Of a stretch of DNA of 36,731 bases, positions 29,511-36,731 are shown piece by piece (the first letter of the stretch is position 1; every line of letters starts with the position of its first letter). Below the pieces are notes generated by a model. It worked only from the letters and a program-made list of their open reading frames with translations. It was not told the DNA's origin and did not search any database. The DNA comes from Candidatus Micrarchaeota archaeon (GTDB lineage Archaea > Micrarchaeota > Micrarchaeia > Anstonellales > Bilamarchaeaceae), in assembly GCA_016935455.1 (NCBI GenBank), contig JAFGQX010000055.1:1-36731 (forward strand), written 5' to 3'. The position numbers were made by a program, and so were the translations under genes.

Positions 29511-29566
29511 TGGTTATTTTGAGACAGGCATAATTATTTATTAACTTGCCACCAGACATTTTTCCG

Positions 29567-30277
29567 ATGATTTATCTCAAAATTGAGAACCTTTCTGCGG
29601 GTTTTCATAGTACTATACTGGATAATGTATCATTTGATATCAAAAAAGGAGAGTTCGTTTTGATATTGGGCCCGAACGGCTCAGGAAAAAGCACATTGTG
29701 CAGAGCACTTATGGGCGACCCCAGCCTTAAAACCAGCGGAAATATATTCTTAGAAGGCAGGAACATAACTAATTTAAGAACTGATGAACGTGCAAAACTC
29801 GGTATGTTCCTTTCTTTCCAGGACCCTCCGGCAATAGAAGGCGTTACCATACTTAAAATGCTGTACAAACTAAAAGGAGGAAAAAAAGACATAATCGTTG
29901 AGAAAAAAAGAATTCAAGAAAATGCTGAGAAAATAGGGCTGAAACAGGAATATGTCGGAAAAGATATCAATGTAAACTTTTCAGGAGGAGAAAAAAAGAG
30001 GGCAGAACTTCTTCAGCTTGCGGAGCTGAACCCCGAATTCATAATGCTTGACGAGCCGGATTCCGGAATGGATGCGGACGGCCTAAGAATGCTTGGAGAT
30101 CTCCTTGAAAAGTTAAAAGAAAAAGGAAAAACAATACTGCTTATCACCCACCAGAGTAAAATTTCCGAAATTATAACTCCGGATAAAGTAATTCTAATGA
30201 ATAACGGTTCAGTTTCTCAGGTTGGCGGCCCGGAGATTCTTGAAAAGATTCAGAAAAAAGGATACTCAGAGGATTAA
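29567..30277 (+). CDS. sufC: Fe-S cluster assembly ATPase SufC
   Basis: Walker A GPNGSGKST, ABC signature FSGGEKKR, Walker B IMLDEPDSG. ATG 29567 is preferred over the track's TTG 29546. Confidence 0.9.
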   Translation: MIYLKIENLSAGFHSTILDNVSFDIKKGEFVLILGPNGSGKSTLCRALMGDPSLKTSGNIFLEGRNITNLRTDERAKLGMFLSFQDPPAIEGVTILKMLYKLKGGKKDIIVEKKRIQENAEKIGLKQEYVGKDINVNFSGGEKKRAELLQLAELNPEFIMLDEPDSGMDADGLRMLGDLLEKLKEKGKTILLITHQSKISEIITPDKVILMNNGSVSQVGGPEILEKIQKKGYSED

Positions 30278-30278
30278 T

Positions 30279-31496
30279 ATGGATGTTGAAAAAATAAGGA
30301 ATGATTTTCCAATTCTGAAAAGAAAGATAAATGGAAAAAAACTAATCTATCTTGACAATGGTGCAACAAGCCAGAAACCCATTCAGGTTATAGATGCAGT
30401 ATCCAATTTTTACAAGAAAAACAATGCAAATATACACCGTGGAATCCACATTTTAAGCGAAGAATCTACCTTAATGTATGACGATTCCAGAAATAAGGTT
30501 TCCCGTTTTATTCATTCAAAAAATCCGGAAGAAATAATCTTTACGAGAAATGCAACCGAATCTATAAATTTAGTAATGTATTCGTGGGGGAAAGAGAACA
30601 TTTCCAGAGGAGACAAGATTGTAATCTCTGAAATGGAACACCATTCAAATCTGATACCTTGGGTTGTCCTTGCAAAAGAAAAAGGCGCCACCCTTGAATA
30701 TCTTGAACTGGATAAGGAAGGCTTAATTAAGGAAGGAGAGCTTGAAAAGATAAAAGGCGCAAAATTTGTTTCAGTTGTCCACGTTTCCAACGTTACTGGG
30801 GTAATTAACGATGTGGAGAAAATATGTAGGACTGCCAGTGAAGAAGGTGCGGTTTCCCTTGTTGACGCCTCCCAGAGCGCCCCGCATATGAAAGTCGATA
30901 TTCAAAGTATTGGGTGTGATTTTCTTGCATTCACCGGCCATAAAATGCTTGCCCCCACTGGAATAGGCGTTTTATACGGAAAAAAAGAAATCCTTGATTC
31001 TATGAATCCGTTTTTATTTGGGGGGGAAATGGTGGTTGAGGCGCACAAGTATGATATGAGATGGAATTCTGTTCCTTATAAATTTGAAGCCGGAACACCC
31101 AACATCTCAGGTGCAGTTGGTTTGGGTTCTGCAGTAGATTATCTGGAACAAATCGGAATGGAGAATATCAGGGCTCATGAAAAAAAGCTTGTTTCATATG
31201 CGCTTGAAAAACTTGGGGCTGTAAACGGCATTTCCATTATTGGCCCGCAGGATTCTTCAAGAAGAAGCGGAATCATCACATTTGAGGTGAAAGGAGTTCA
31301 TCCTCATGATGTTGCCTCCATTTTAAGTGAAGAGGGCATTTGCTTACGGTCGGGTTATCACTGCGCCCAGCCTTTGCACGAATCAATGGGTCTCCAGCCT
31401 ACTACACGGGCAAGTTTTTACATCTACAACACCGAGGAAGAGATTGACTTTCTTATTGAGAATCTAGTAAAAGTAAAGAAAATATTCGGTGTTTAA
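30279..31496 (+). CDS. sufS: Cysteine desulfurase SufS (class V aminotransferase)
   Basis: MDVEKIRNDFPILKRK...YLDNGATSQKP...FTGHKM (PLP lysine)...RSGYHCAQP. ATG 30279 lies 1 nt after the sufC stop. The track start 30222 would overlap sufC. Confidence 0.9.
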   Translation: MDVEKIRNDFPILKRKINGKKLIYLDNGATSQKPIQVIDAVSNFYKKNNANIHRGIHILSEESTLMYDDSRNKVSRFIHSKNPEEIIFTRNATESINLVMYSWGKENISRGDKIVISEMEHHSNLIPWVVLAKEKGATLEYLELDKEGLIKEGELEKIKGAKFVSVVHVSNVTGVINDVEKICRTASEEGAVSLVDASQSAPHMKVDIQSIGCDFLAFTGHKMLAPTGIGVLYGKKEILDSMNPFLFGGEMVVEAHKYDMRWNSVPYKFEAGTPNISGAVGLGSAVDYLEQIGMENIRAHEKKLVSYALEKLGAVNGISIIGPQDSSRRSGIITFEVKGVHPHDVASILSEEGICLRSGYHCAQPLHESMGLQPTTRASFYIYNTEEEIDFLIENLVKVKKIFGV

Positions 31497-31871
31497 ATGG
31501 ATGAGATTGCCAGAGAAAGAATTATAGAGCTTTATAAGAATCCCCTTAATTTTGGGACAATCCCGGATGCAGATTACACTGCAGAACTTAGAAACTCAGC
31601 CTGCGGAGACATAATTAGAATCTATCTCCAGGTAAAAAATAACAAAATAATTGATGCAAAATTTGAAGGCGAGGGTTGTGCCATAAGTATGGCTTCCGCA
31701 TCTCTTCTAACTGATTTTTTAAAAGGAAAAACACCGGAGGAAGTAAGAAATTTAGACAAAGACGACATTCAAAAAATTCTTGGAATGGACCTTTCCAGAA
31801 ACCCTTCAAGACTAAGATGTGCTCTTCTTCCCCTGGAAACTGCAAAAAAAGCACTGGCCGGCAGCAAATAA
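31497..31871 (+). CDS. sufU: SufU/IscU-type Fe-S scaffold or sulfur-transfer protein
   Basis: 124 aa with conserved Cys in ACGDII, GEGCAIS and RLRCALLP. Confidence 0.85.
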   Translation: MDEIARERIIELYKNPLNFGTIPDADYTAELRNSACGDIIRIYLQVKNNKIIDAKFEGEGCAISMASASLLTDFLKGKTPEEVRNLDKDDIQKILGMDLSRNPSRLRCALLPLETAKKALAGSK

Positions 31872-31887: not shown

Positions 31888-31897
31888 TATTTATAAA
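31888..31897 (+). promoter_or_regulatory. Candidate TATA box for the ATPase-containing five-gene cluster
   Basis: The sequence tatttataaa lies about 35-40 nt upstream of ATG 31930, in the 58-nt gap after sufU. Confidence 0.35.
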
Positions 31898-31929: not shown

Positions 31930-32739
31930 ATGGTCGGACAGAGGAAATTGTATATGTATATCGCGATAGGAATCGCAGGCCTCGGCTTCCTTTTATCTAT
32001 GATTGGGGGAGGAGGGATTTTGTCTCTTTTGGGAGGTCTTTTTGCAGGGGCAGGGGCAGTGGCTTCAATAGCTTTGATGAAGTTCGGCTATGTTGTTATG
32101 CCTCTTATTACAAAACAGACAAAAACATCCGTTTATCTTGAAGAGCCATATGAGATACCGCCAAGCCAGGATGTGATTGTAAAAAAATCAGGAAACGAAT
32201 ATCTCGCATCCTCATTTTTAAGCATCAAGATATATGAATCTTCAACCGAAAAATCTCTTGAACAAAATATAGCATATAATGAGTATTTTGAAAGAGCAAT
32301 CTCCAATATGAAATATGTAACCAAAATATCCTATCTGGTTTATGTTGAGGACATCAGTGCAAAGAGGAAAGACCTGGAAACAAAAAGAGCTGAAGCCCAG
32401 CTGAGGCTTGCAAGGGAAAAAGAAAAACCTGATCCGGATGTCCTGAAAATAGACCGTTATGAAAGAGAAGTTGCGAAATATGACAATGAAATCAACAAAA
32501 TGGTGAGAGGCGAGAAACCAATGGGTGTTATTGCATATGCGATGACCACCGCCAAAGGAATAAGCAAGGAAGCTGCGATTGCAGAAGCAAAAGCGCAGGC
32601 AAAAGAACTCAGAACCCTTCTTGCAAATTCTTTGAACGTTGAAGTGGAACTCCTCACCGCCGACAGCATGCTTAAATGTTTTGAATGGGAAATGTTCTTC
32701 CCGTCCTCAAGAGAAGGAATCGAAGATTCGGTGGTCTAA
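31930..32739 (+). CDS. Hypothetical 2-TM membrane protein with a ~200-aa soluble coiled-coil-containing domain (cluster gene A)
   Basis: 269 aa. The TM segments are YMYIAIGIAGLGFLLSMIGGG and ILSLLGGLFAGAGAVASIALMKF. A charged helical segment reads KRKDLETKRAEAQLRLAREKEKPD. Its stop overlaps the next start (TAATG). Confidence 0.8.
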   Translation: MVGQRKLYMYIAIGIAGLGFLLSMIGGGGILSLLGGLFAGAGAVASIALMKFGYVVMPLITKQTKTSVYLEEPYEIPPSQDVIVKKSGNEYLASSFLSIKIYESSTEKSLEQNIAYNEYFERAISNMKYVTKISYLVYVEDISAKRKDLETKRAEAQLRLAREKEKPDPDVLKIDRYEREVAKYDNEINKMVRGEKPMGVIAYAMTTAKGISKEAAIAEAKAQAKELRTLLANSLNVEVELLTADSMLKCFEWEMFFPSSREGIEDSVV

Positions 32740-34313
32740 TGGGCGTTCTGGAAATTTCTAGGATATCCAACAAATCCCTTTCAAGAAGAAATCTTCTTGT
32801 TCATCCGGCCGAGCCTCCGATGGAAATTCTCTGCAGAGACCCGGCAAATTCAATATTTGTGGGAAAAACAAAAATGCTCCACGTCCCCTTTTTCTGGTCG
32901 TACGAAAATGTGACTAATCCGCACATTGCAGTTGTGGGTATTTCAGGTTCAGGTAAAAGCTACTTTATCAAAACATTCCTTATAAGGGCATCAATCACCT
33001 GGAACTCCAATGCAGTAATAATAGACTGGGCCGGGGAATACAAGGACTGGGTGAGAGATATAGGGGGAGAGATACTTGCTCTTGGAAAAGGCTCATACAT
33101 CAACCTTCTTGACCTTGGAGGAATGAAGCCTTACAACAGGATAAAGCAAGTTATGAGAACTCTTGAACTTCTTACAGACATAGGAAATTATCCCGAACAA
33201 AAAAGACTGACGGAAGAGGCAATAGAAAAAGCATACATTAGAGACAAATTCCAGATGGATGCAGTCGAGCAGAAAGACGAGCTTGGAAAACCGCTCAAAC
33301 CCCCGACACTCAAGAACGTAGTCAAAATACTTGAAGAAAAAGCTTCAATGGGGACCTATGAATTTCCTGCAGAACTTGAAAACGCAATCTACCGGCTTAA
33401 AAAATTCACCAAGCCCGGAGAGGATTACTTTGCAAGAAAAAGCACAATAGACCTTGAAAAACTTATTACCAGCGGGGTTGTTGATATTGACCTTTCCGGC
33501 CTTCCGGATGAAAGGGCAAGAGCACTCGGCGCCCTTACAATCCTTCAGTTTATAAAAGAAAAAATGAGAGCGACAGGATGGGCAAAAACAAAGGGACTCA
33601 GGCTCCTGGTTGTCCTTGACGAAGCGTGGAAGATATCCAAAGAGGAAAACAGCGATGCTGTGATGATTGTCAGGGAAGGACGAAAATATAATTTCGGAAT
33701 GATAATTGCAAGCCAGAACCCGACAGATATAAGCGAGGCGATATTTTCAAATGTCGGAACAACATTTATTCTCAAGGTTAAATTTGAAAAATACCTTGAT
33801 TATCTTCAGGGAACATTGAATTTCTCTGAATTTATGAGGCATGAAATTTCCACTCTTGGCGTCGGACAGACTGCGGTTAATATGGCATTCACCACGCCGA
33901 CACCCTACCCCTCAACATTCCTTATAGACAAAATAGTCGGGGAGGAGCCTTCGGTTGAATATTTCCTTCTATTGGAAAGTGTTCTGACCGACAAACAGAA
34001 AAAGGATGATACTATGGCCAAATCAATAGCTTTTGATAAGGGAGAATTTAGGAGGAAACTGATTGAATACGGGCTTTCAGAAGAAAATATAGTAAACATG
34101 CTCGGACTTTTTGACAGAAACAACCGGAGAATGGGCATCATTGCTTTTGTTCTTCTTCTTGAAAGGACAGGTCTTGAAAGAAAAAGAATAGCTGATTTCC
34201 TTCAGGAGATGGGGATTGAAGATTCAGTGATGATAAATATTTTTGTCAATGTAGACAAAAAGAGAAGCAAATTTGAAGGGCGGGATATTTCACAGCTTGT
34301 TCTGGAGGATTAA
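32739..34313 (+). CDS. FtsK-HerA superfamily P-loop ATPase, VirB4/TraC/HerA-like (cluster gene B)
   Basis: 524 aa from ATG 32739. Motifs are Walker A VVGISGSGKSYF, IIDWAGEY, Walker B RLLVVLDEAWK and VREGRKYNFGMIIASQNPTDI. It also has a ~110-aa C-terminal extension. The track start 32685 overlaps gene A. Confidence 0.8.
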   Translation: MGVLEISRISNKSLSRRNLLVHPAEPPMEILCRDPANSIFVGKTKMLHVPFFWSYENVTNPHIAVVGISGSGKSYFIKTFLIRASITWNSNAVIIDWAGEYKDWVRDIGGEILALGKGSYINLLDLGGMKPYNRIKQVMRTLELLTDIGNYPEQKRLTEEAIEKAYIRDKFQMDAVEQKDELGKPLKPPTLKNVVKILEEKASMGTYEFPAELENAIYRLKKFTKPGEDYFARKSTIDLEKLITSGVVDIDLSGLPDERARALGALTILQFIKEKMRATGWAKTKGLRLLVVLDEAWKISKEENSDAVMIVREGRKYNFGMIIASQNPTDISEAIFSNVGTTFILKVKFEKYLDYLQGTLNFSEFMRHEISTLGVGQTAVNMAFTTPTPYPSTFLIDKIVGEEPSVEYFLLLESVLTDKQKKDDTMAKSIAFDKGEFRRKLIEYGLSEENIVNMLGLFDRNNRRMGIIAFVLLLERTGLERKRIADFLQEMGIEDSVMINIFVNVDKKRSKFEGRDISQLVLED

Positions 34314-34314
34314 C

Positions 34315-34686
34315 ATGAAAGTCTGCATTGAATGTAAAAAAGAGCTTAAAAAAGAAGACCTTAAAAAGGCAGTAAAAGTTAAAGATGACAGAATAATAAA
34401 AACAATAAGAAGCATTAAAAAGAAGCTTAATATTGCTGCGAACAATGAACTTTACATATGCGCAGAATGCCTTCAGGAGCACAAGAGGAAGAGAAAGGAT
34501 TATGAAAAAAATATGGTTCTGATAATTGCTCTTTCAGTCCTGATATTTCTTGGTCTTGGTTTTCTTCCGATAATTGCAGCAGGACAGTTCAGGCTGTCTT
34601 CTTTCCTTGCAGGTCTTCTGGTGGGGGCAATACTTATAGTTCTGGCGGGAATACTCAAATACACTCCTGCTGCGGAGGGGACATGA
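34315..34686 (+). CDS. Hypothetical zinc-ribbon plus 2-TM membrane protein (cluster gene C)
   Basis: 123 aa from ATG 34315, with GGAGGA 5 nt upstream. It has CIEC...CAEC, then LIIALSVLIFLGLGFLPIIAAG and LAGLLVGAILIVLAGIL. Confidence 0.75.
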   Translation: MKVCIECKKELKKEDLKKAVKVKDDRIIKTIRSIKKKLNIAANNELYICAECLQEHKRKRKDYEKNMVLIIALSVLIFLGLGFLPIIAAGQFRLSSFLAGLLVGAILIVLAGILKYTPAAEGT

Positions 34687-35436
34687 ATGGTTGATATTCT
34701 GAAAGGAAGCAAAAAAAGCGAGGAAGTGCACAATCCTCTTGTGGATAGTTTTACAGTCAGCGGAAAACTAAAAAGTTCTTTCAAGGAAATTTCAAAAATC
34801 CTCAGTGCAGTTTCATTTCTTGAGGTTGCTCCGGAAAGCAATGCGATTAATGTTGCTTACGTGGAAAGCCGGGATATAAACGGAAAACCGTACACTTTTA
34901 CACTACTCAGGATAAAAAAGGAAGAAGCCAGTGTTGTTTATTCAATCCCACCAAACATTGCTCCGAATAAAAGAAAACTGGATGTGGTAAGGTATTTTAT
35001 AAATATACTTAACCTGATGGGAAAAAATTATCAGGTTGAAACAAGACTTGTTTTCAGCCTCATTGAAGATGCGGTTAAAGGCCTTGGAGAGCTTATTGAC
35101 AAGGAAAGCTCGAAGGTTTATATTGAATATGACACTATGAAAAAAGAGGTTGCCCAGCTCAGGTCAAAAGCCAGCTCGCTTAAAAACCAGAACGAAGAGC
35201 TCAAAAACAAGATATATGAGCTGAAAAACCAGAACGAAGAACTCACTTTGAAACTTTCAAAATTTGAAGCAATTTCCGATGAATCTTTGAAAACCCGCCT
35301 TGTTGAGTGGATAAGGGACCACAGCGGAAAGATAAACATCCCTGAGTTTTCAAAGGTTTACAATATAAGCGAGGGCAGGGTTGAAGATGTCCTTAATATG
35401 ATGGTTACTGAAGGTTATCTTAGTGCTGCAAGGTAA
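34687..35436 (+). CDS. Hypothetical coiled-coil protein with a C-terminal winged-helix-like domain (cluster gene D)
   Basis: 249 aa. The ATG directly abuts the upstream TGA. It has the heptad repeat LKNQNEELKNKIYELKNQNEELTLKL and the C-terminal INIPEFSKVYNISEGRVEDVLNMMVTEGYL. Confidence 0.75.
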   Translation: MVDILKGSKKSEEVHNPLVDSFTVSGKLKSSFKEISKILSAVSFLEVAPESNAINVAYVESRDINGKPYTFTLLRIKKEEASVVYSIPPNIAPNKRKLDVVRYFINILNLMGKNYQVETRLVFSLIEDAVKGLGELIDKESSKVYIEYDTMKKEVAQLRSKASSLKNQNEELKNKIYELKNQNEELTLKLSKFEAISDESLKTRLVEWIRDHSGKINIPEFSKVYNISEGRVEDVLNMMVTEGYLSAAR

Positions 35437-35441
35437 TTTTA

Positions 35442-36731
35442 ATGGCTGAAAAAAAGATTAAAAAGGTAGCAATAAAAAAAACAACGTATTCGTTTGACAT
35501 CAACCGCAGTTATGACTATGAGAAACAATTTAGAATTATTGAGAAAACCCCTCTGGATGAGATTAAAAAGAAAGCAAAAAGCCTTTTTGCACCTTCTGAA
35601 AAAAAACTGCATCCAGAGAAAGAAAAGGCAAAACCCGGCTTGAATCCCCTTCTTATTGGCGGAGTGCTTGCACTGTTGATTCTTTTGGGTACGGGACTTT
35701 TTATCTACTTCCAGCTGAACGCCATTTCTTCAGTTCCTGAAAAGACCGAATTTCCCTCTTCATTTTTTTCCGCATCTCTCCAGGACGGCGGGATGATATC
35801 TTACGGTTCGGAAGAACAGAATCTTCACGCGGGATATCTGGATATTGCATATTCTCTTGTTTCGGTTCAGGAGCCCACACTTACCTTAAGTGTTTACGGT
35901 GAAACACCGCCTTCGCAGGTTTATATACTTTCAAACCCCCGCGACTACACTCAGACAAATTCATTCGGTGATTTTAAGAGAACTCTCAAGGATATCCTTG
36001 AAACAAAGCAGATGGCTGCCAGCGATATAACTGTTGAGCAGCTGAAAACAGTCCAGAAAGGAAGCCTCGTAATAGTTCCGACAGGCAGGCTCCCCAAGCA
36101 GATGGCTGAAGACGGAGAACAGAATATAAGAAGAATTCTGGAAAGGGGCGCGCATATAATTTATATAGGGCAGGATTTTACCGAGGTTATTGATGAAAAC
36201 GGGATTGTACAGCAGACTCCCCAGACATCGCTTGATAAGATAGGCATAATATTCAAAAAAACTTCGCCAACCGCGCAGGGCATCGAACTTTTCCGCCCGG
36301 GTTATACTGCAGAAGGAAAGTCCTCCGATTATGAATCCTCCATTATACTCGGAGCGCTGAGCGTCATTAAGAATACAAACAGCAACGGTTATCTGGTAAT
36401 TATTCCCCAGACTCTTGACGGAGGATGGAGGGAAGACGGAGAAAAGGCAGGAACAGAAATATCAAAACTTGTTTTCCAGACTCCCTGGATTGTCCCCGAG
36501 AATATCCGCCAGTACCAGCTTGAAGAGTCAAATTCAAGCATTACAAAAACATTTTATACCGGCCCCTTTTCAGGCTCGGAAAAGTATATCCGTGCAGACA
36601 TTCTTGGTATTGACAGCGAAGGGTATTACACCGGAAAAGTAATATTCAAAAAAGTTTATCCGGATTCAAATGGAGAGCTTTATATCGATGAAGGGCCGGC
36701 GCTTATATCCTCATCAGTAAGCGGGGAGAAA
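35442..36731 (+). CDS. Hypothetical single-pass membrane protein with a large external domain, 3' end cut by the window (cluster gene E)
   Basis: Not in the ORF track because it runs off the window. The frame is open for 430 codons from ATG 35442. A basic N-terminus is followed by the TM segment LNPLLIGGVLALLILLGTGLFIYF and more than 340 aa beyond it. Confidence 0.75.
   Translation, partial: MAEKKIKKVAIKKTTYSFDINRSYDYEKQFRIIEKTPLDEIKKKAKSLFAPSEKKLHPEKEKAKPGLNPLLIGGVLALLILLGTGLFIYFQLNAISSVPEKTEFPSSFFSASLQDGGMISYGSEEQNLHAGYLDIAYSLVSVQEPTLTLSVYGETPPSQVYILSNPRDYTQTNSFGDFKRTLKDILETKQMAASDITVEQLKTVQKGSLVIVPTGRLPKQMAEDGEQNIRRILERGAHIIYIGQDFTEVIDENGIVQQTPQTSLDKIGIIFKKTSPTAQGIELFRPGYTAEGKSSDYESSIILGALSVIKNTNSNGYLVIIPQTLDGGWREDGEKAGTEISKLVFQTPWIVPENIRQYQLEESNSSITKTFYTGPFSGSEKYIRADILGIDSEGYYTGKVIFKKVYPDSNGELYIDEGPALISSSVSGEK

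What the first reader, a model, noticed from the sequence alone, without database searches (positions are those of the whole stretch)
31930..36731. Tightly coupled five-gene membrane/ATPase cluster: candidate uncharacterised translocation apparatus
Five same-strand genes follow a TATA-like element (31888-31897). Their junctions are nearly seamless: a TAATG overlap at 32737-32741, a 1-nt gap at 34314, TGA directly followed by ATG at 34684-34689, and a 5-nt gap at 35437-35441. This implies a single translationally coupled operon.

The parts are:
- A: a 2-TM protein with a soluble coiled-coil domain.
- B: a 524-aa P-loop ATPase with GISGSGKS, IIDWAGEY, LLVVLDEAW and REGRKYNFGMIIASQNPTDI. This motif order is the hallmark of VirB4/TraC/HerA-class pumping ATPases.
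- C: a CxxC...CxxC zinc ribbon fused to 2 TM segments.
- D: a coiled-coil protein ending in a wHTH-like domain.
- E: an N-in single-pass protein with a large external domain.

I see no pilin, PilB/GspE ATPase, VirD4 coupling protein, relaxase, NurA-type nuclease or integrase. The cluster therefore fits none of the named systems I recognise (T4SS, type IV pilus/archaellum, HerA-NurA, HerA-based defence). A membrane-embedded hexameric pump with a DNA-binding-like partner and a surface-exposed component would suit DNA or protein transfer across the envelope. That could matter for a host-dependent small archaeon. The functional reading is inference.
Basis: partly seen in the sequence, partly recalled or inferred. 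Interest (0 to 1): 0.78.

Follow-up and report, generated by a model that had tools for sequence, protein, structure and literature searches.

The report
Split-VirB4 secretion-like operon of Micrarchaeota
These five tightly packed genes are a phylum-wide conserved, undescribed relative of type IV secretion / archaeal DNA-exchange (Ced/Ted) machines in tiny symbiotic Micrarchaeota archaea, which makes it a concrete candidate for how these cells move DNA or other large molecules across their envelope.

Summary
The same A-B-C-D-E order recurs in every one of 80 Micrarchaeota species loci that is long enough to show it, in changing housekeeping surroundings.

It is a membrane ATPase apparatus, but it is not unrelated to named systems.
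- **A** is homologous to the membrane-anchored N-terminal region of fused thaumarchaeal ATPases. Those match the DNA-import ATPase CedB over both N-terminal and motor domains. So A+B is a VirB4/CedB-type ATPase split into two genes.
- **Paralogous and orthologous loci** in Micrarchaeota place VirB2-like pilins and a 5-6-TM membrane protein directly upstream of A-B-D.
- **C** (zinc ribbon plus 2 TM), **D** (novel α/β domain, 75-residue helix, winged helix) and **E** match no known family. E is about 850 aa when complete: two TM segments, an Ig-like surface stalk and a conserved cytoplasmic domain.

No pilin or VirB6-like gene lies in this window, and the substrate is unknown. Best reading: a domesticated, chromosomal, T4SS-derived translocon with new subunits. 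I could find no description of it in the searchable literature. I rate it a new variant of a known kind, interest about 0.66.

The parts
31890..31897 (+). TTTATAAA, an archaeal TATA-box-like element 33-40 nt upstream of the A start codon. It is the candidate operon promoter.
   Evidence: Read directly from the sequence. Function is inferred. TTTAWA occurs at a comparable distance upstream of A in 42 of 72 related loci, but this was not compared with chance.
31930..32739 (+). Gene A, 269 aa. It has two N-terminal TM helices (about residues 8-50, N-in/C-in) followed by a cytoplasmic domain. I interpret it as the detached membrane anchor plus VirB4/CedB-type N-terminal domain of the ATPase.
   Evidence: - No Pfam or NCBIfam family.
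- Hydrophobic segments found by hydropathy scan.
- The profile of 33 orthologues aligns over 230 columns with the N-terminal 240-290 residues of seven fused thaumarchaeal ATPases (hhalign 94.7%, E 6e-8).
- One of those, P0162, matches NCBIfam CedB from residue 102 to 641, model positions 75-587 of 590.
- Median identity to relatives is 57%.
32739..34313 (+). Gene B, 524 aa. It is a cytoplasmic FtsK-HerA-superfamily P-loop motor of VirB4/CedB-like affinity. It carries Walker A GISGSGKS, Walker B LLVVLDEAW and an REGRK...ASQ arginine-finger/sensor region. A roughly 125-residue helical C-terminal domain follows (residues about 398-524).
   Evidence: - Pfam: DUF87/HerA central 7.8e-14, AAA_10, TraG P-loop.
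- NCBIfam: CedB 75 bits, CedD 74, VirB4-like 67, HerA 52, all far below the curated cut-offs.
- PDB by sequence: HerA 4d2i and VirB4 4ag5.
- More than 1,100 homologues; the top 120 are 67-80% identical over the full length, and those a source names are from Micrarchaeota.
- The C-terminal domain profile gives only weak hits (Topo V (HhH)2 at 1.9e-4, EF-hand pairs).
34315..34686 (+). Gene C, 123 aa. It has a lysine-rich cytoplasmic CxxC...CxxC zinc ribbon followed by a 2-TM hairpin. It is specific to this 'system 1' version of the operon.
   Evidence: - Sequence and hydropathy.
- Cysteine conservation across relatives.
- Only sub-threshold family hits.
- Not related to the VirB2-like pilin family of related loci (hhalign 0.8%).
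- Median identity to relatives is 39%.
34687..35436 (+). Gene D, 249 aa, a soluble protein. It has a novel α/β domain (residues 18-117), a single 75-residue helix (119-193, a likely dimerising coiled coil) and a C-terminal three-helix winged-helix-like domain (198-242). It is a core partner of A-B, since a paralogue follows A'-B' in the second system.
   Evidence: - AlphaFold2 model, mean pLDDT 85.8.
- Foldseek against PDB gives no match at E<=1e-3.
- Weak winged-helix hits: Pfam EAP30/Vps36 at 8e-5 and PDB 2xvc (CdvB winged helix) at 0.003.
- D versus D': hhalign 100%, E 1.7e-40.
35442..36731 (+). Gene E, first 430 codons only; it runs off the window. Full-length orthologues are about 800-915 aa, laid out as follows:
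- a basic cytoplasmic tail and TM1;
- a surface region made of a β-sandwich, an α/β domain with an invariant PQTLDxGW motif, and 3-4 Ig/FN3/macroglobulin-like β-sandwiches;
- TM2;
- a conserved cytoplasmic α/β domain.
   Evidence: - Translation and full-length orthologues.
- AlphaFold2 model of orthologue P0322 (34% identical to the window fragment), pLDDT 78.6.
- Foldseek finds only generic Ig-like matches: α2-macroglobulin/complement MG domains, S-layer Sap/EA1, FN3 arrays.
- No Pfam family.
- It is the fastest-evolving member, with median identity 28%.

Best explanation
The five genes encode a chromosomally fixed, type-IV-secretion-derived (Ced/Ted-like) envelope translocation machine of Micrarchaeota.

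Proposed roles:
- **A and B** together make one VirB4/CedB-type motor. A supplies the 2-TM anchor and the N-terminal domain. B supplies the RecA-like ATPase, presumably a hexamer, plus a helical C-terminal domain.
- **D** is a dimeric cytoplasmic coiled-coil adaptor. Its winged-helix end recruits or senses the substrate (DNA or a protein partner).
- **C** (zinc ribbon plus TM hairpin) and **E** (two TM segments, long Ig-like surface stalk, conserved cytoplasmic domain) are the membrane and surface subunits of this version. They link contact outside the cell to the motor inside.

By analogy with Ced/Ted, the most likely job is ATP-driven transfer of DNA across the membrane at cell-cell contacts. 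A protein or other macromolecule is less likely.

What is shown: gene content, homology of A+B, conservation and predicted topology. What is inferred: oligomeric state, subunit contacts, direction of transport and substrate.
For: 1. **The motor is intact.** B has Walker A, Walker B and arginine-finger motifs. Its best curated matches are CedB, CedD and VirB4-like conjugation ATPases. tblastn against plasmids gives thousands of weak TraC/DUF87 hits, of which 4,659 of 5,000 lie on plasmids predicted to be conjugative.
2. **A is the missing N-terminal half.** Its profile aligns with the N-terminal TM-plus-domain region of fused ~880-aa ATPases (hhalign 94.7%, E 6e-8, 230 columns). Those proteins match CedB across NTD and motor (144 bits against 61 for HerA). 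They sit in Thaumarchaeota behind small 2-TM and 6-8-TM membrane proteins.
3. **Related loci have T4SS hallmarks.** The same Micrarchaeota genomes carry a paralogous locus: polytopic membrane protein, A', B', D'. In several lineages the polytopic protein and small pilin-like proteins directly precede A-B. Of 13 pilin-like proteins, 10 hit Pfam T4SS_pilin and 9 hit TrbC/VirB2. The only PDB hit is TrwL.
4. **Predicted topology fits (hydropathy scan; AF2 models for D and E only).** It places A's domain, C's zinc ribbon, D and E's most conserved domain on the cytoplasmic side with B. It places a ~500-residue Ig-like stalk outside.
5. **It is a core operon.** The order is conserved in every sufficiently long locus of 80 species, with changing housekeeping flanks and typical GC content. 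B is 62-80% identical across these 80 loci. Some orthologues host inteins at the P-loop and at Walker B.
6. **There is a precedent.** In Sulfolobales, CedB and CedD are TM + NTD + HerA/VirB4-like ATPases, their NTDs resemble the VirB4 NTD, and both are needed for DNA import (PMC11868833). Ced/Ted are described as domesticated T4SS (PMC9905601).
Against: - The ATPase domain alone does not discriminate. HerA, DndH and mad8 defence models and a phage family score about as well as CedB (68-76 bits). PDB HerA scores slightly above PDB VirB4. All curated cut-offs are missed by a wide margin.
- The link from A to the VirB4/CedB NTD is transitive. Concatenated A+B did not extend the CedB match into A, and I could not model A.
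- No VirB2-like or VirB6-like gene lies in the window or next to the operon in loci L001-L080, the orthologous loci retrieved with the window's own B.
- The polytopic protein of related loci has no family match.
- C, D and E have no counterpart in any described T4SS, Ced or Ted system.
- Nothing identifies the substrate. The DNA-binding hints are weak (D winged helix; B C-terminal domain against Topo V HhH at 1.9e-4).
- There are no expression or experimental data.
Confidence: 0.62

Rival explanations
1. It is the same T4SS-derived machine, but it is not a DNA mover. It would secrete or take up proteins, assemble a surface filament, or build the docking structure that connects Micrarchaeota to their hosts. 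E would act as adhesin or receptor.
For: - VirB4 motors also drive pilus biogenesis and protein secretion (established T4SS knowledge).
- E has a long Ig-like surface stalk, evolves fast and resembles S-layer/adhesin-like arrays.
- Pilin-like genes accompany related loci.
- VirB4-like domains in nanohaloarchaeal giant surface proteins have been proposed as effector-secretion devices (PMC10266531).
- Cryo-ET of a Micrarchaeota co-culture shows a 21-nm barrel-like docking structure and thin filaments of unknown genetic basis (bioRxiv 10.1101/2024.05.20.594898).
Against: - No signal-bearing substrate or effector gene is linked to the operon.
- No pilin gene lies in this version of the locus.
- The only experimentally studied archaeal relatives (Ced) move DNA (PMC11868833).
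- D's winged helix and the HhH-like hint in B lean weakly towards nucleic acid.
Confidence: 0.2
2. It is a membrane-anchored FtsK/HerA-like chromosome pump for segregation or cell division in a streamlined archaeon. D would act as a division-site coiled-coil adaptor.
For: - Very high conservation, a housekeeping neighbourhood, and inteins typical of essential ATPases.
- D resembles division coiled-coil proteins and the CdvB winged helix at weak scores.
- Iyer et al. 2004 proposed HerA as an archaeal FtsK analogue (reference cited within PMC4158269).
Against: - FtsK_SpoIIIE Pfam is below threshold and matches only the P-loop (17.7 against 24 bits).
- The coiled-coil hits are compositional.
- There are two paralogous systems per genome, linked in relatives to VirB2-like pilins and polytopic membrane proteins.
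- A ~500-residue extracellular stalk on E has no role in segregation.
Confidence: 0.1
3. It is a HerA-based anti-virus defence system or a DNA-repair HerA-NurA module.
For: B matches several PADLOC HerA, DndH and mad8 ATPase models (E 1e-20 to 1e-10). It also matches NCBIfam HerA models.
Against: - Only the ATPase matches. A, C, D and E hit no defence component beyond coiled-coil noise.
- No NurA, Mre11, Rad50, Sir2 or nuclease partner is present among the five products.
- B starts about 60 residues before the P-loop, so there is no room for a HAS-barrel.
- The five genes recur as a unit in every adequate locus of 80 species, unlike the patchy distribution usual for defence islands (general knowledge; the distribution of this operon across all Micrarchaeota was not measured).
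- Three of the five products are membrane proteins.
Confidence: 0.04
4. It is the transfer module of an integrated conjugative element or plasmid, not a host system.
For: The closest non-Micrarchaeota relatives are thaumarchaeal T4SS-like clusters of the kind described in integrative-conjugative elements (PMC6563490).
Against: - No integrase, relaxase, VirD4 or att-like flank is present.
- Flanks are different housekeeping genes in different lineages.
- GC content matches the surroundings.
- No plasmid or phage record has a close homologue; the best is 27% identical.
- Every adequate locus of 80 species keeps the same order.
Confidence: 0.03

Closest known systems
Ced system of Sulfolobales (CedA, CedA1, CedA2, CedB, plus CedD/CedE)
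   Same: - It is chromosomal rather than plasmid-borne and derived from a T4SS.
- Its motors CedB and CedD are TM + N-terminal domain + HerA/VirB4-like ATPase, and they occur as two paralogues per genome.
- CedB and CedD are the best NCBIfam matches of B and of the fused relatives that bridge A to B.
- Its function is DNA import (PMC11868833, PMC9905601).
   Different: - Here the anchor/NTD (A) and the motor (B) are separate genes.
- Scores are far below the equivalog cut-offs (75 against 700 bits).
- No CedA/VirB6-like channel or CedA1 pilin lies in this locus.
- C, D and E have no Ced counterpart.
- The B C-terminal helical domain does not align to the CedB model: the match ends at residue 345 of B and model position 536/590.
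- The lineage is DPANN, not Thermoproteota.
Ted system of Thermoproteales (TedA VirB6-like, TedB VirB4-like, TedC VirB2-like pilin)
   Same: It is a minimal archaeal pilin + polytopic channel + VirB4 set. That mirrors the pilin / polytopic / A / B arrangement found in ARMAN-type and 'system 2' Micrarchaeota loci (PMC9905601).
   Different: - The window's own version lacks the pilin and polytopic genes.
- It carries D (also present in system 2) and, in addition, C and E.
- I had no Ted sequences to compare directly.
VirB4/TraC ATPases of bacterial and archaeal conjugative T4SS (including thaumarchaeal integrative-conjugative elements)
   Same: - Same ATPase superfamily and motif order.
- VirB3-like small membrane partners and a VirB4 N-terminal domain precede the motor.
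- The fused thaumarchaeal relatives (L156, L157) sit behind 2-TM and 6-8-TM proteins.
- There are thousands of weak TraC hits on conjugative plasmids.
   Different: - Only 21-27% identity.
- No VirD4, relaxase, VirB8, VirB1 or integrase.
- Chromosomal, in an unchanged five-gene order (not demonstrably vertical — no gene-tree/species-tree comparison was made), and not mobile.
HerA (HerA-NurA repair helicase; HerA of defence systems)
   Same: The RecA-like core gives comparable HMM scores.
   Different: - No HAS-barrel N-terminal domain and no NurA, nuclease or Sir2 partner.
- It is membrane-anchored through A and accompanied by membrane proteins.
VirB4/TraG-like domains of nanohaloarchaeal giant surface ('SPEARE') proteins
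   Same: It is a DPANN symbiont that combines an Ig-like-repeat surface stalk, a TM segment and a VirB4-like cytoplasmic ATPase. Others have proposed that it mediates host interaction (PMC10266531).
   Different: There the stalk and ATPase are one giant polypeptide. Here they are separate proteins (E and A+B). No sequence comparison was made.

Membership tests
T4SS-derived archaeal exchange systems (Ced/Ted type) | VirB4/CedB-class motor ATPase with intact Walker A/B and arginine finger | tested here: inconclusive
   - The motifs are present.
- CedB, CedD and VirB4-like models are the top NCBIfam hits, but at 67-75 bits against cut-offs of 325-700.
- HerA and defence models score similarly.
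- Superfamily membership is certain. Clade membership rests on points outside the motor domain.
T4SS-derived archaeal exchange systems (Ced/Ted type) | Membrane-anchored VirB4-type N-terminal domain (or VirB3-like partner) joined to the motor | tested here: met
   - A (2 TM plus a domain) is homologous to the N-terminal region of fused ATPases (hhalign 94.7%, E 6e-8).
- The NTD and motor of those ATPases together match CedB.
- A and B overlap by one base.
- The link is indirect: the concatenated A+B match did not extend into A.
T4SS-derived archaeal exchange systems (Ced/Ted type) | VirB6/CedA/TedA-like polytopic membrane channel encoded with the motor | tested here: not met
   - No homologue of the polytopic family lies in the window or in loci L001-L080.
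- A 4-8-TM protein does precede A'/A in the paralogous and some orthologous loci. It has no Pfam or NCBIfam match.
T4SS-derived archaeal exchange systems (Ced/Ted type) | VirB2/CedA1/TedC-like pilin | tested here: not met
   - Absent from the window, and C is unrelated to it.
- Present in related Micrarchaeota loci: 10 of 13 members hit T4SS_pilin and 9 of 13 hit TrbC/VirB2, best E 1e-6.
T4SS-derived archaeal exchange systems (Ced/Ted type) | Mediates intercellular DNA transfer | not testable with these tools
   This needs genetics or biochemistry in a Micrarchaeota co-culture.
Conjugative plasmid/ICE T4SS | VirD4 coupling protein, relaxase, integrase or att flanks; location on a mobile element | tested here: not met
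   - None of these is among the five products.
- Flanks are variable housekeeping genes.
- No close plasmid or phage homologue exists.
HerA-NurA repair module | N-terminal HAS-barrel on HerA; adjacent NurA (and usually Mre11/Rad50) | tested here: not met
   - The P-loop of B starts at about residue 60, and HerA HMMs match only the core.
- No NurA, Mre11 or Rad50 hit occurs in A, C, D or E.
HerA-based anti-phage defence | HerA paired with an effector (Sir2, DUF4297 nuclease and the like), in a patchy defence-island context | tested here: not met
   PADLOC matches only the ATPase. The operon is present in every adequate locus of 80 species.
FtsK/SpoIIIE translocases | FtsK motor domain above threshold; gamma (KOPS-binding) winged helix; 4-TM N-terminus on the same chain | tested here: not met
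   Pfam FtsK_SpoIIIE scores 17.7 bits against a cut-off of 24, over residues 57-83 only. The C-terminal domain gives no FtsK-gamma hit.

The most novel reading that the evidence does not exclude
The A-E operon encodes the Micrarchaeota side of the host-symbiont conduit. In this reading a T4SS-derived importer uses E's surface stalk to form or dock the envelope structure seen by cryo-ET at host contact sites. The A+B motor, guided by D, then pulls host DNA or other macromolecules into the symbiont. It would be the first molecularly defined uptake machine for a DPANN archaeon. C, D and E would be entirely new T4SS subunits that replace the pilin and VirB6 channel.
Probability: 0.12. Interest if true: 0.9.

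Novelty: new variant of a known kind. Interest (0 to 1): 0.66.

Why it matters
DPANN archaea such as Micrarchaeota have reduced genomes and depend on physical contact with hosts. The proteins that move material across their envelopes are unknown.

This operon is among the best-conserved non-housekeeping gene sets in these genomes. Its motor is 62-80% identical across the 80 sampled species loci, and it has attracted inteins. It is tied by homology to the only archaeal machines shown to exchange DNA between cells.

It gives experimentalists a defined five-protein target in the available Micrarchaeota co-cultures, with a second, paralogous system as a built-in comparison. It extends the known range of T4SS-derived systems to DPANN. 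It also shows a new architecture: a VirB4 split into anchor and motor genes, joined by three unknown subunits. If it imports host DNA or proteins, it would bear directly on how genome-reduced symbionts survive.

Tried and rejected
- **Direct family assignment of A, C, D and E.** Pfam, NCBIfam, PADLOC and PHROGs gave nothing beyond coiled-coil or TM noise. Profile searches of A, D and E against PDB sequences gave nothing significant.
- **Extending the CedB match into A.** Concatenating A+B did not extend the match.
- **C as a divergent VirB2-like pilin.** Rejected (hhalign 0.8%). C's predicted topology is also the reverse of a pilin's, with its N-terminal zinc ribbon in the cytoplasm.
- **D's N-terminal domain.** Foldseek gave only marginal KA1/TBP-like resemblances (E >= 2.9e-3), so I make no fold claim.
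- **E fold search.** It returned only generic Ig/FN3/macroglobulin β-sandwich matches. The cytoplasmic domain could not be searched on its own.
- **Homologue search for E.** The word-indexed search found only the query itself. I recovered orthologues by exact look-up of translated loci instead.
- **The D-position protein in ARMAN-type loci.** It is not detectably homologous to D (hhalign 3-5%).
- **B's C-terminal domain.** Only weak helix-hairpin/EF-hand-like hits, so it is a hint and not a DNA-binding assignment.
- **Mobile-element and defence readings.** Considered and rejected on context and partner content.
- **RNA genes.** No tRNA or Rfam element occurs anywhere in the window.

Full report
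**1. Observation**

The region holds five + strand ORFs:

| Gene | Coordinates | Length |
|---|---|---|
| A | 31930-32739 | 269 aa |
| B | 32739-34313 | 524 aa |
| C | 34315-34686 | 123 aa |
| D | 34687-35436 | 249 aa |
| E | 35442 to the window end | 430 codons, open |

They are a one-base TAATG overlap, a 1-nt gap, TGA directly followed by ATG, and a 5-nt gap. Shine-Dalgarno-like GGTG/GGAGG motifs lie upstream of A to D. A TTTATAAA box sits at 31890-31897, 33-40 nt before the A start. The quoted ATPase motifs and the CxxC...CxxC pair are present. GC content matches the rest of the window. The start of B at 32739 is supported by homologues of 521-532 aa that cover the query from residue 1.

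**2. Organism and conservation**

B has more than 1,100 database relatives. The top 120 are 67-80% identical over the full length, and those that a source names are from Micrarchaeota. This phylum is now called Microcaldota.

A scan of one genome per species returned 189 loci, of which the 80 best were kept. tblastn with all five products finds A, B, C, D and E in that order in 69 of them. Ten of the other 11 are cut by contig ends. In the eleventh, L066, E was recovered as an ORF by blastp.

Median identity to the window falls in this order: B 68%, A 57%, D 45%, C 39%, E 28%. Median intergenic gaps across loci are 2, 6, 5 and 12 nt.

The flanks change between lineages. A PurB-like lyase often lies upstream. 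A glycosyltransferase and TFE lie downstream on the other strand. SufS is found upstream only in the three closest relatives. E is always the last gene. This is therefore a chromosomal core operon and not an island.

**3. What A+B is**

B matches Pfam DUF87/HerA-central, AAA_10 and TraG P-loop. Its best NCBIfam models are CedB (75 bits), CedD (74) and VirB4-like conjugation ATPases (67). HerA scores 52. All are far below the curated cut-offs. PDB sequence hits are HerA and VirB4.

PADLOC HerA, DndH and mad8 models and one PHROG family score about the same. The motor domain alone therefore does not place B.

An exhaustive representative search found ~880-aa proteins whose residues ~285-640 match B. 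These proteins have an N-terminal TM region plus a further domain. A profile of 33 A orthologues aligns with that N-terminal region over 230 columns (hhalign 94.7%, E 6e-8). One of these proteins, P0162, matches the CedB model from residue 102 to 641, model positions 75-587 of 590, at 144 bits against 61 for HerA.

Two of the fused relatives lie in Thaumarchaeota genomes, behind a small 2-TM protein, a 6-8-TM protein and another small 2-TM protein. That layout matches the VirB4/VirB6/VirB3 content reported for thaumarchaeal integrative-conjugative elements (PMC6563490).

In Sulfolobales, CedB and CedD have the same TM + NTD + ATPase plan. Their NTDs resemble the VirB4 NTD, and both are required for DNA import (PMC11868833). 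I conclude that A+B is a VirB4/CedB-type ATPase split into an anchor/NTD gene and a motor gene. The link from A to CedB is transitive, because concatenated A+B did not extend the CedB match into A.

**4. Related loci supply the missing T4SS hallmarks**

Searching with more distant B relatives showed that the same genomes carry a second, paralogous locus. Examples are chromosome OY970229.1 (L032 and L119) and contig JBAZFC010000001.1 (L031 and L112). The closest relative's MAG, STB_180, also has both (L001 and L130).

This 'system 2' consists of a polytopic membrane protein (median 5 TM), then A' (35-40% identical), B' (39-43%) and D' (about 26%). Housekeeping genes follow. The paralogy is clear: hhalign gives 100% for A against A' and for D against D' (E 1.7e-40).

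Other arrangements also occur:
- In five system-2 loci an ~80-aa protein with two hydrophobic helices precedes the polytopic gene.
- In several system-1 loci, such as L106, L116, L132 and L152, signal-peptide versions of that small protein precede A.
- In Fermentimicrarchaeum-type loci (L138, L141, L150), four or five tandem polytopic genes and two A copies precede B.
- In ARMAN-type Micrarchaeota the order is pilin-like, polytopic, A-like, a minimal 374-aa B, a 226-aa protein, and further on a second 735-aa ATPase.

Of 13 pilin-like proteins, 10 hit Pfam T4SS_pilin and 9 hit TrbC/VirB2 (best E 1e-6). The only PDB sequence hit is the R388 pilin TrwL.

The polytopic protein has no family match. 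Its VirB6-like role is inferred from position and topology only. Neither family has a homologue in the window or in loci L001-L080.

**5. The new subunits**

*C.* C is a lysine-rich zinc ribbon followed by a TM hairpin. It is unrelated to the pilin family.

*D.* The model is confident (pLDDT 85.8). It shows an α/β domain (residues 18-117), one 75-residue helix, and a three-helix winged-helix-like end. Foldseek finds nothing at E<=1e-3. Weak sequence hits of the C-terminus to ESCRT-II/EAP30 and the CdvB winged helix say only 'winged helix'.

*E.* E could not be extended by the homologue search. I used exact look-up of translated orthologues instead and modelled P0322, which is 842 aa and 34% identical to the window fragment (pLDDT 78.6). 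The model has these parts:
- a basic cytoplasmic tail;
- TM 66-91;
- outside, a β-sandwich, an α/β domain carrying the invariant PQTLDxGW motif, and three or four Ig/FN3/macroglobulin-like β-sandwiches;
- TM 599-621;
- a cytoplasmic α/β domain (625-842), which is the most conserved part of the protein.

Foldseek returns only generic Ig-like matches, and Pfam returns nothing.

*B's C-terminal domain.* A profile of residues 398-524 gives weak helix-hairpin-type hits (Topo V (HhH)2 at 1.9e-4, EF-hand pairs). This is a hint and not an assignment.

**6. Mechanism**

*Shown:*
- an intact motor;
- its detached membrane anchor/NTD;
- three co-inherited partners, whose predicted topology puts A's domain, C's zinc ribbon, D and E's conserved domain on B's side of the membrane and a ~500-residue stalk outside;
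- kinship with T4SS-derived archaeal systems.

*Inferred:*
- B forms a hexamer held at the membrane by A.
- The TM helices of C, E and A (six per set) form or gate the membrane path in this pilin-less, VirB6-less version, or the path is borrowed from system 2.
- D dimerises and brings in substrate or a regulator through its winged helix.
- E mediates contact with another cell.

By analogy with Ced/Ted the substrate is most likely DNA, but a protein, a filament or another cargo is not excluded. My confidence that this is a T4SS-derived translocation machine is about 0.6 for the DNA-type reading. A further 0.2 goes to the same machine with a non-DNA role.

**7. Rivals**

- *FtsK-like segregation pump.* Very high conservation and inteins favour it. 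The pilin and polytopic linkage, the two paralogous systems and E's surface stalk count against it. FtsK Pfam is sub-threshold.
- *Defence or HerA-NurA.* Only the ATPase matches, and no partners are present.
- *Mobile element.* There are no integrase, relaxase or VirD4 genes, the flanks are variable housekeeping genes, and no close plasmid or phage relatives exist.

**8. Novelty**

Searches of the available literature found several related items. They are Ced/Ted (PMC9905601, PMC11868833), thaumarchaeal ICEs (PMC6563490), VirB4-like domains in nanohaloarchaeal giant proteins (PMC10266531), a T4SS survey of Patescibacteria (PMC12102498) and archaeal 'dark matter' surveys (PMC4158269, PMC6393860). 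I found no description of this Micrarchaeota operon. The library is incomplete, so prior description cannot be excluded.

Cryo-ET of a Micrarchaeota co-culture reports contact-site structures with no assigned genes (bioRxiv 10.1101/2024.05.20.594898). Any link to this operon is speculation.

I classify the finding as a new variant of a known kind: a T4SS-derived system with a split VirB4 and three new subunits.

**9. Verdict**

Interest is 0.66.

Noticed in passing
Relatives of window 32739-34313 (proteins P0122, P0123): Some B orthologues carry large inteins with LAGLIDADG homing-endonuclease domains. One is inserted at the Walker B strand (P0122, 1026 aa) and one right after the P-loop lysine (P0123, 1196 aa). 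Pfam confirmed both (Intein_splicing at 1e-22 and 1e-13).
   Followed up: yes
L082-L137 (for example L119 on OY970229.1, L112 on JBAZFC010000001.1, L130 in MAG STB_180): The same Micrarchaeota genomes hold a second, paralogous system: polytopic membrane protein, A', B', D', sometimes preceded by an ~80-aa VirB2-like pilin. PurD, a secreted transglutaminase-like protein and lipid-synthesis genes follow. Two paralogous motors per genome recall CedB/CedD.
   Followed up: partly
L138, L141, L150 (CP058998.1, Ca. Fermentimicrarchaeum limneticum complete genome): In this lineage four or five tandem paralogues of the polytopic membrane protein and two tandem copies of A precede B-C-D-E.
   Followed up: no
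L153-L155 (ARMAN-type Micrarchaeota): Here B is a minimal 374-aa form that lacks the ~120-150-residue middle insertion. It sits in the order pilin, polytopic protein, A-like, B, then a 226-aa protein. A second 735-741-aa HerA/CedD-like ATPase lies a few genes downstream. The 226-aa protein occupies D's position but is not detectably homologous to D.
   Followed up: partly
L063, L067, L075, L076, L138, L141, L147, L149-L152: In these loci the B match spans ~1,830-1,900 nt instead of ~1,570. In several of them (L067, L076, L138, L149-L152) it reads as a ~510-aa ORF plus a ~100-aa ORF. This suggests an insertion (a mini-intein?) or a frameshift near the C-terminal domain.
   Followed up: no
Window 35442-36731 (E), motif at about 36402-36425; orthologue P0322 residues 320-327: The extracellular α/β domain of E carries an invariant PQTLDxGW motif and other invariant residues. 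These stand out in an otherwise fast-evolving surface region and hint at a binding or catalytic site. The best single-domain Foldseek resemblance was to the α/β domain of a GH42 β-galactosidase.
   Followed up: no
Window 29546-31871: By eye, the three genes directly upstream look like an Fe-S cluster set: a SufC-like ABC ATPase, a SufS-like cysteine desulfurase and an IscU/NifU-like scaffold. tblastn finds SufS next to the operon only in the three closest relatives (L001-L003), so the adjacency is recent.
   Followed up: partly
Window 1-36731: No tRNA gene and no Rfam family at gathering threshold occurs anywhere in the 36.7-kb window.
   Followed up: yes
Record titles of L001, L013, L023, L038, L062: Several MAGs carrying the operon are titled 'Candidatus ainarchaeum sp.', a name absent from the NCBI taxonomy copy. 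It may be a garbled 'Iainarchaeum', which belongs to a different DPANN phylum. Their B proteins interleave with Micrarchaeota by identity, so the label is doubtful.
   Followed up: partly
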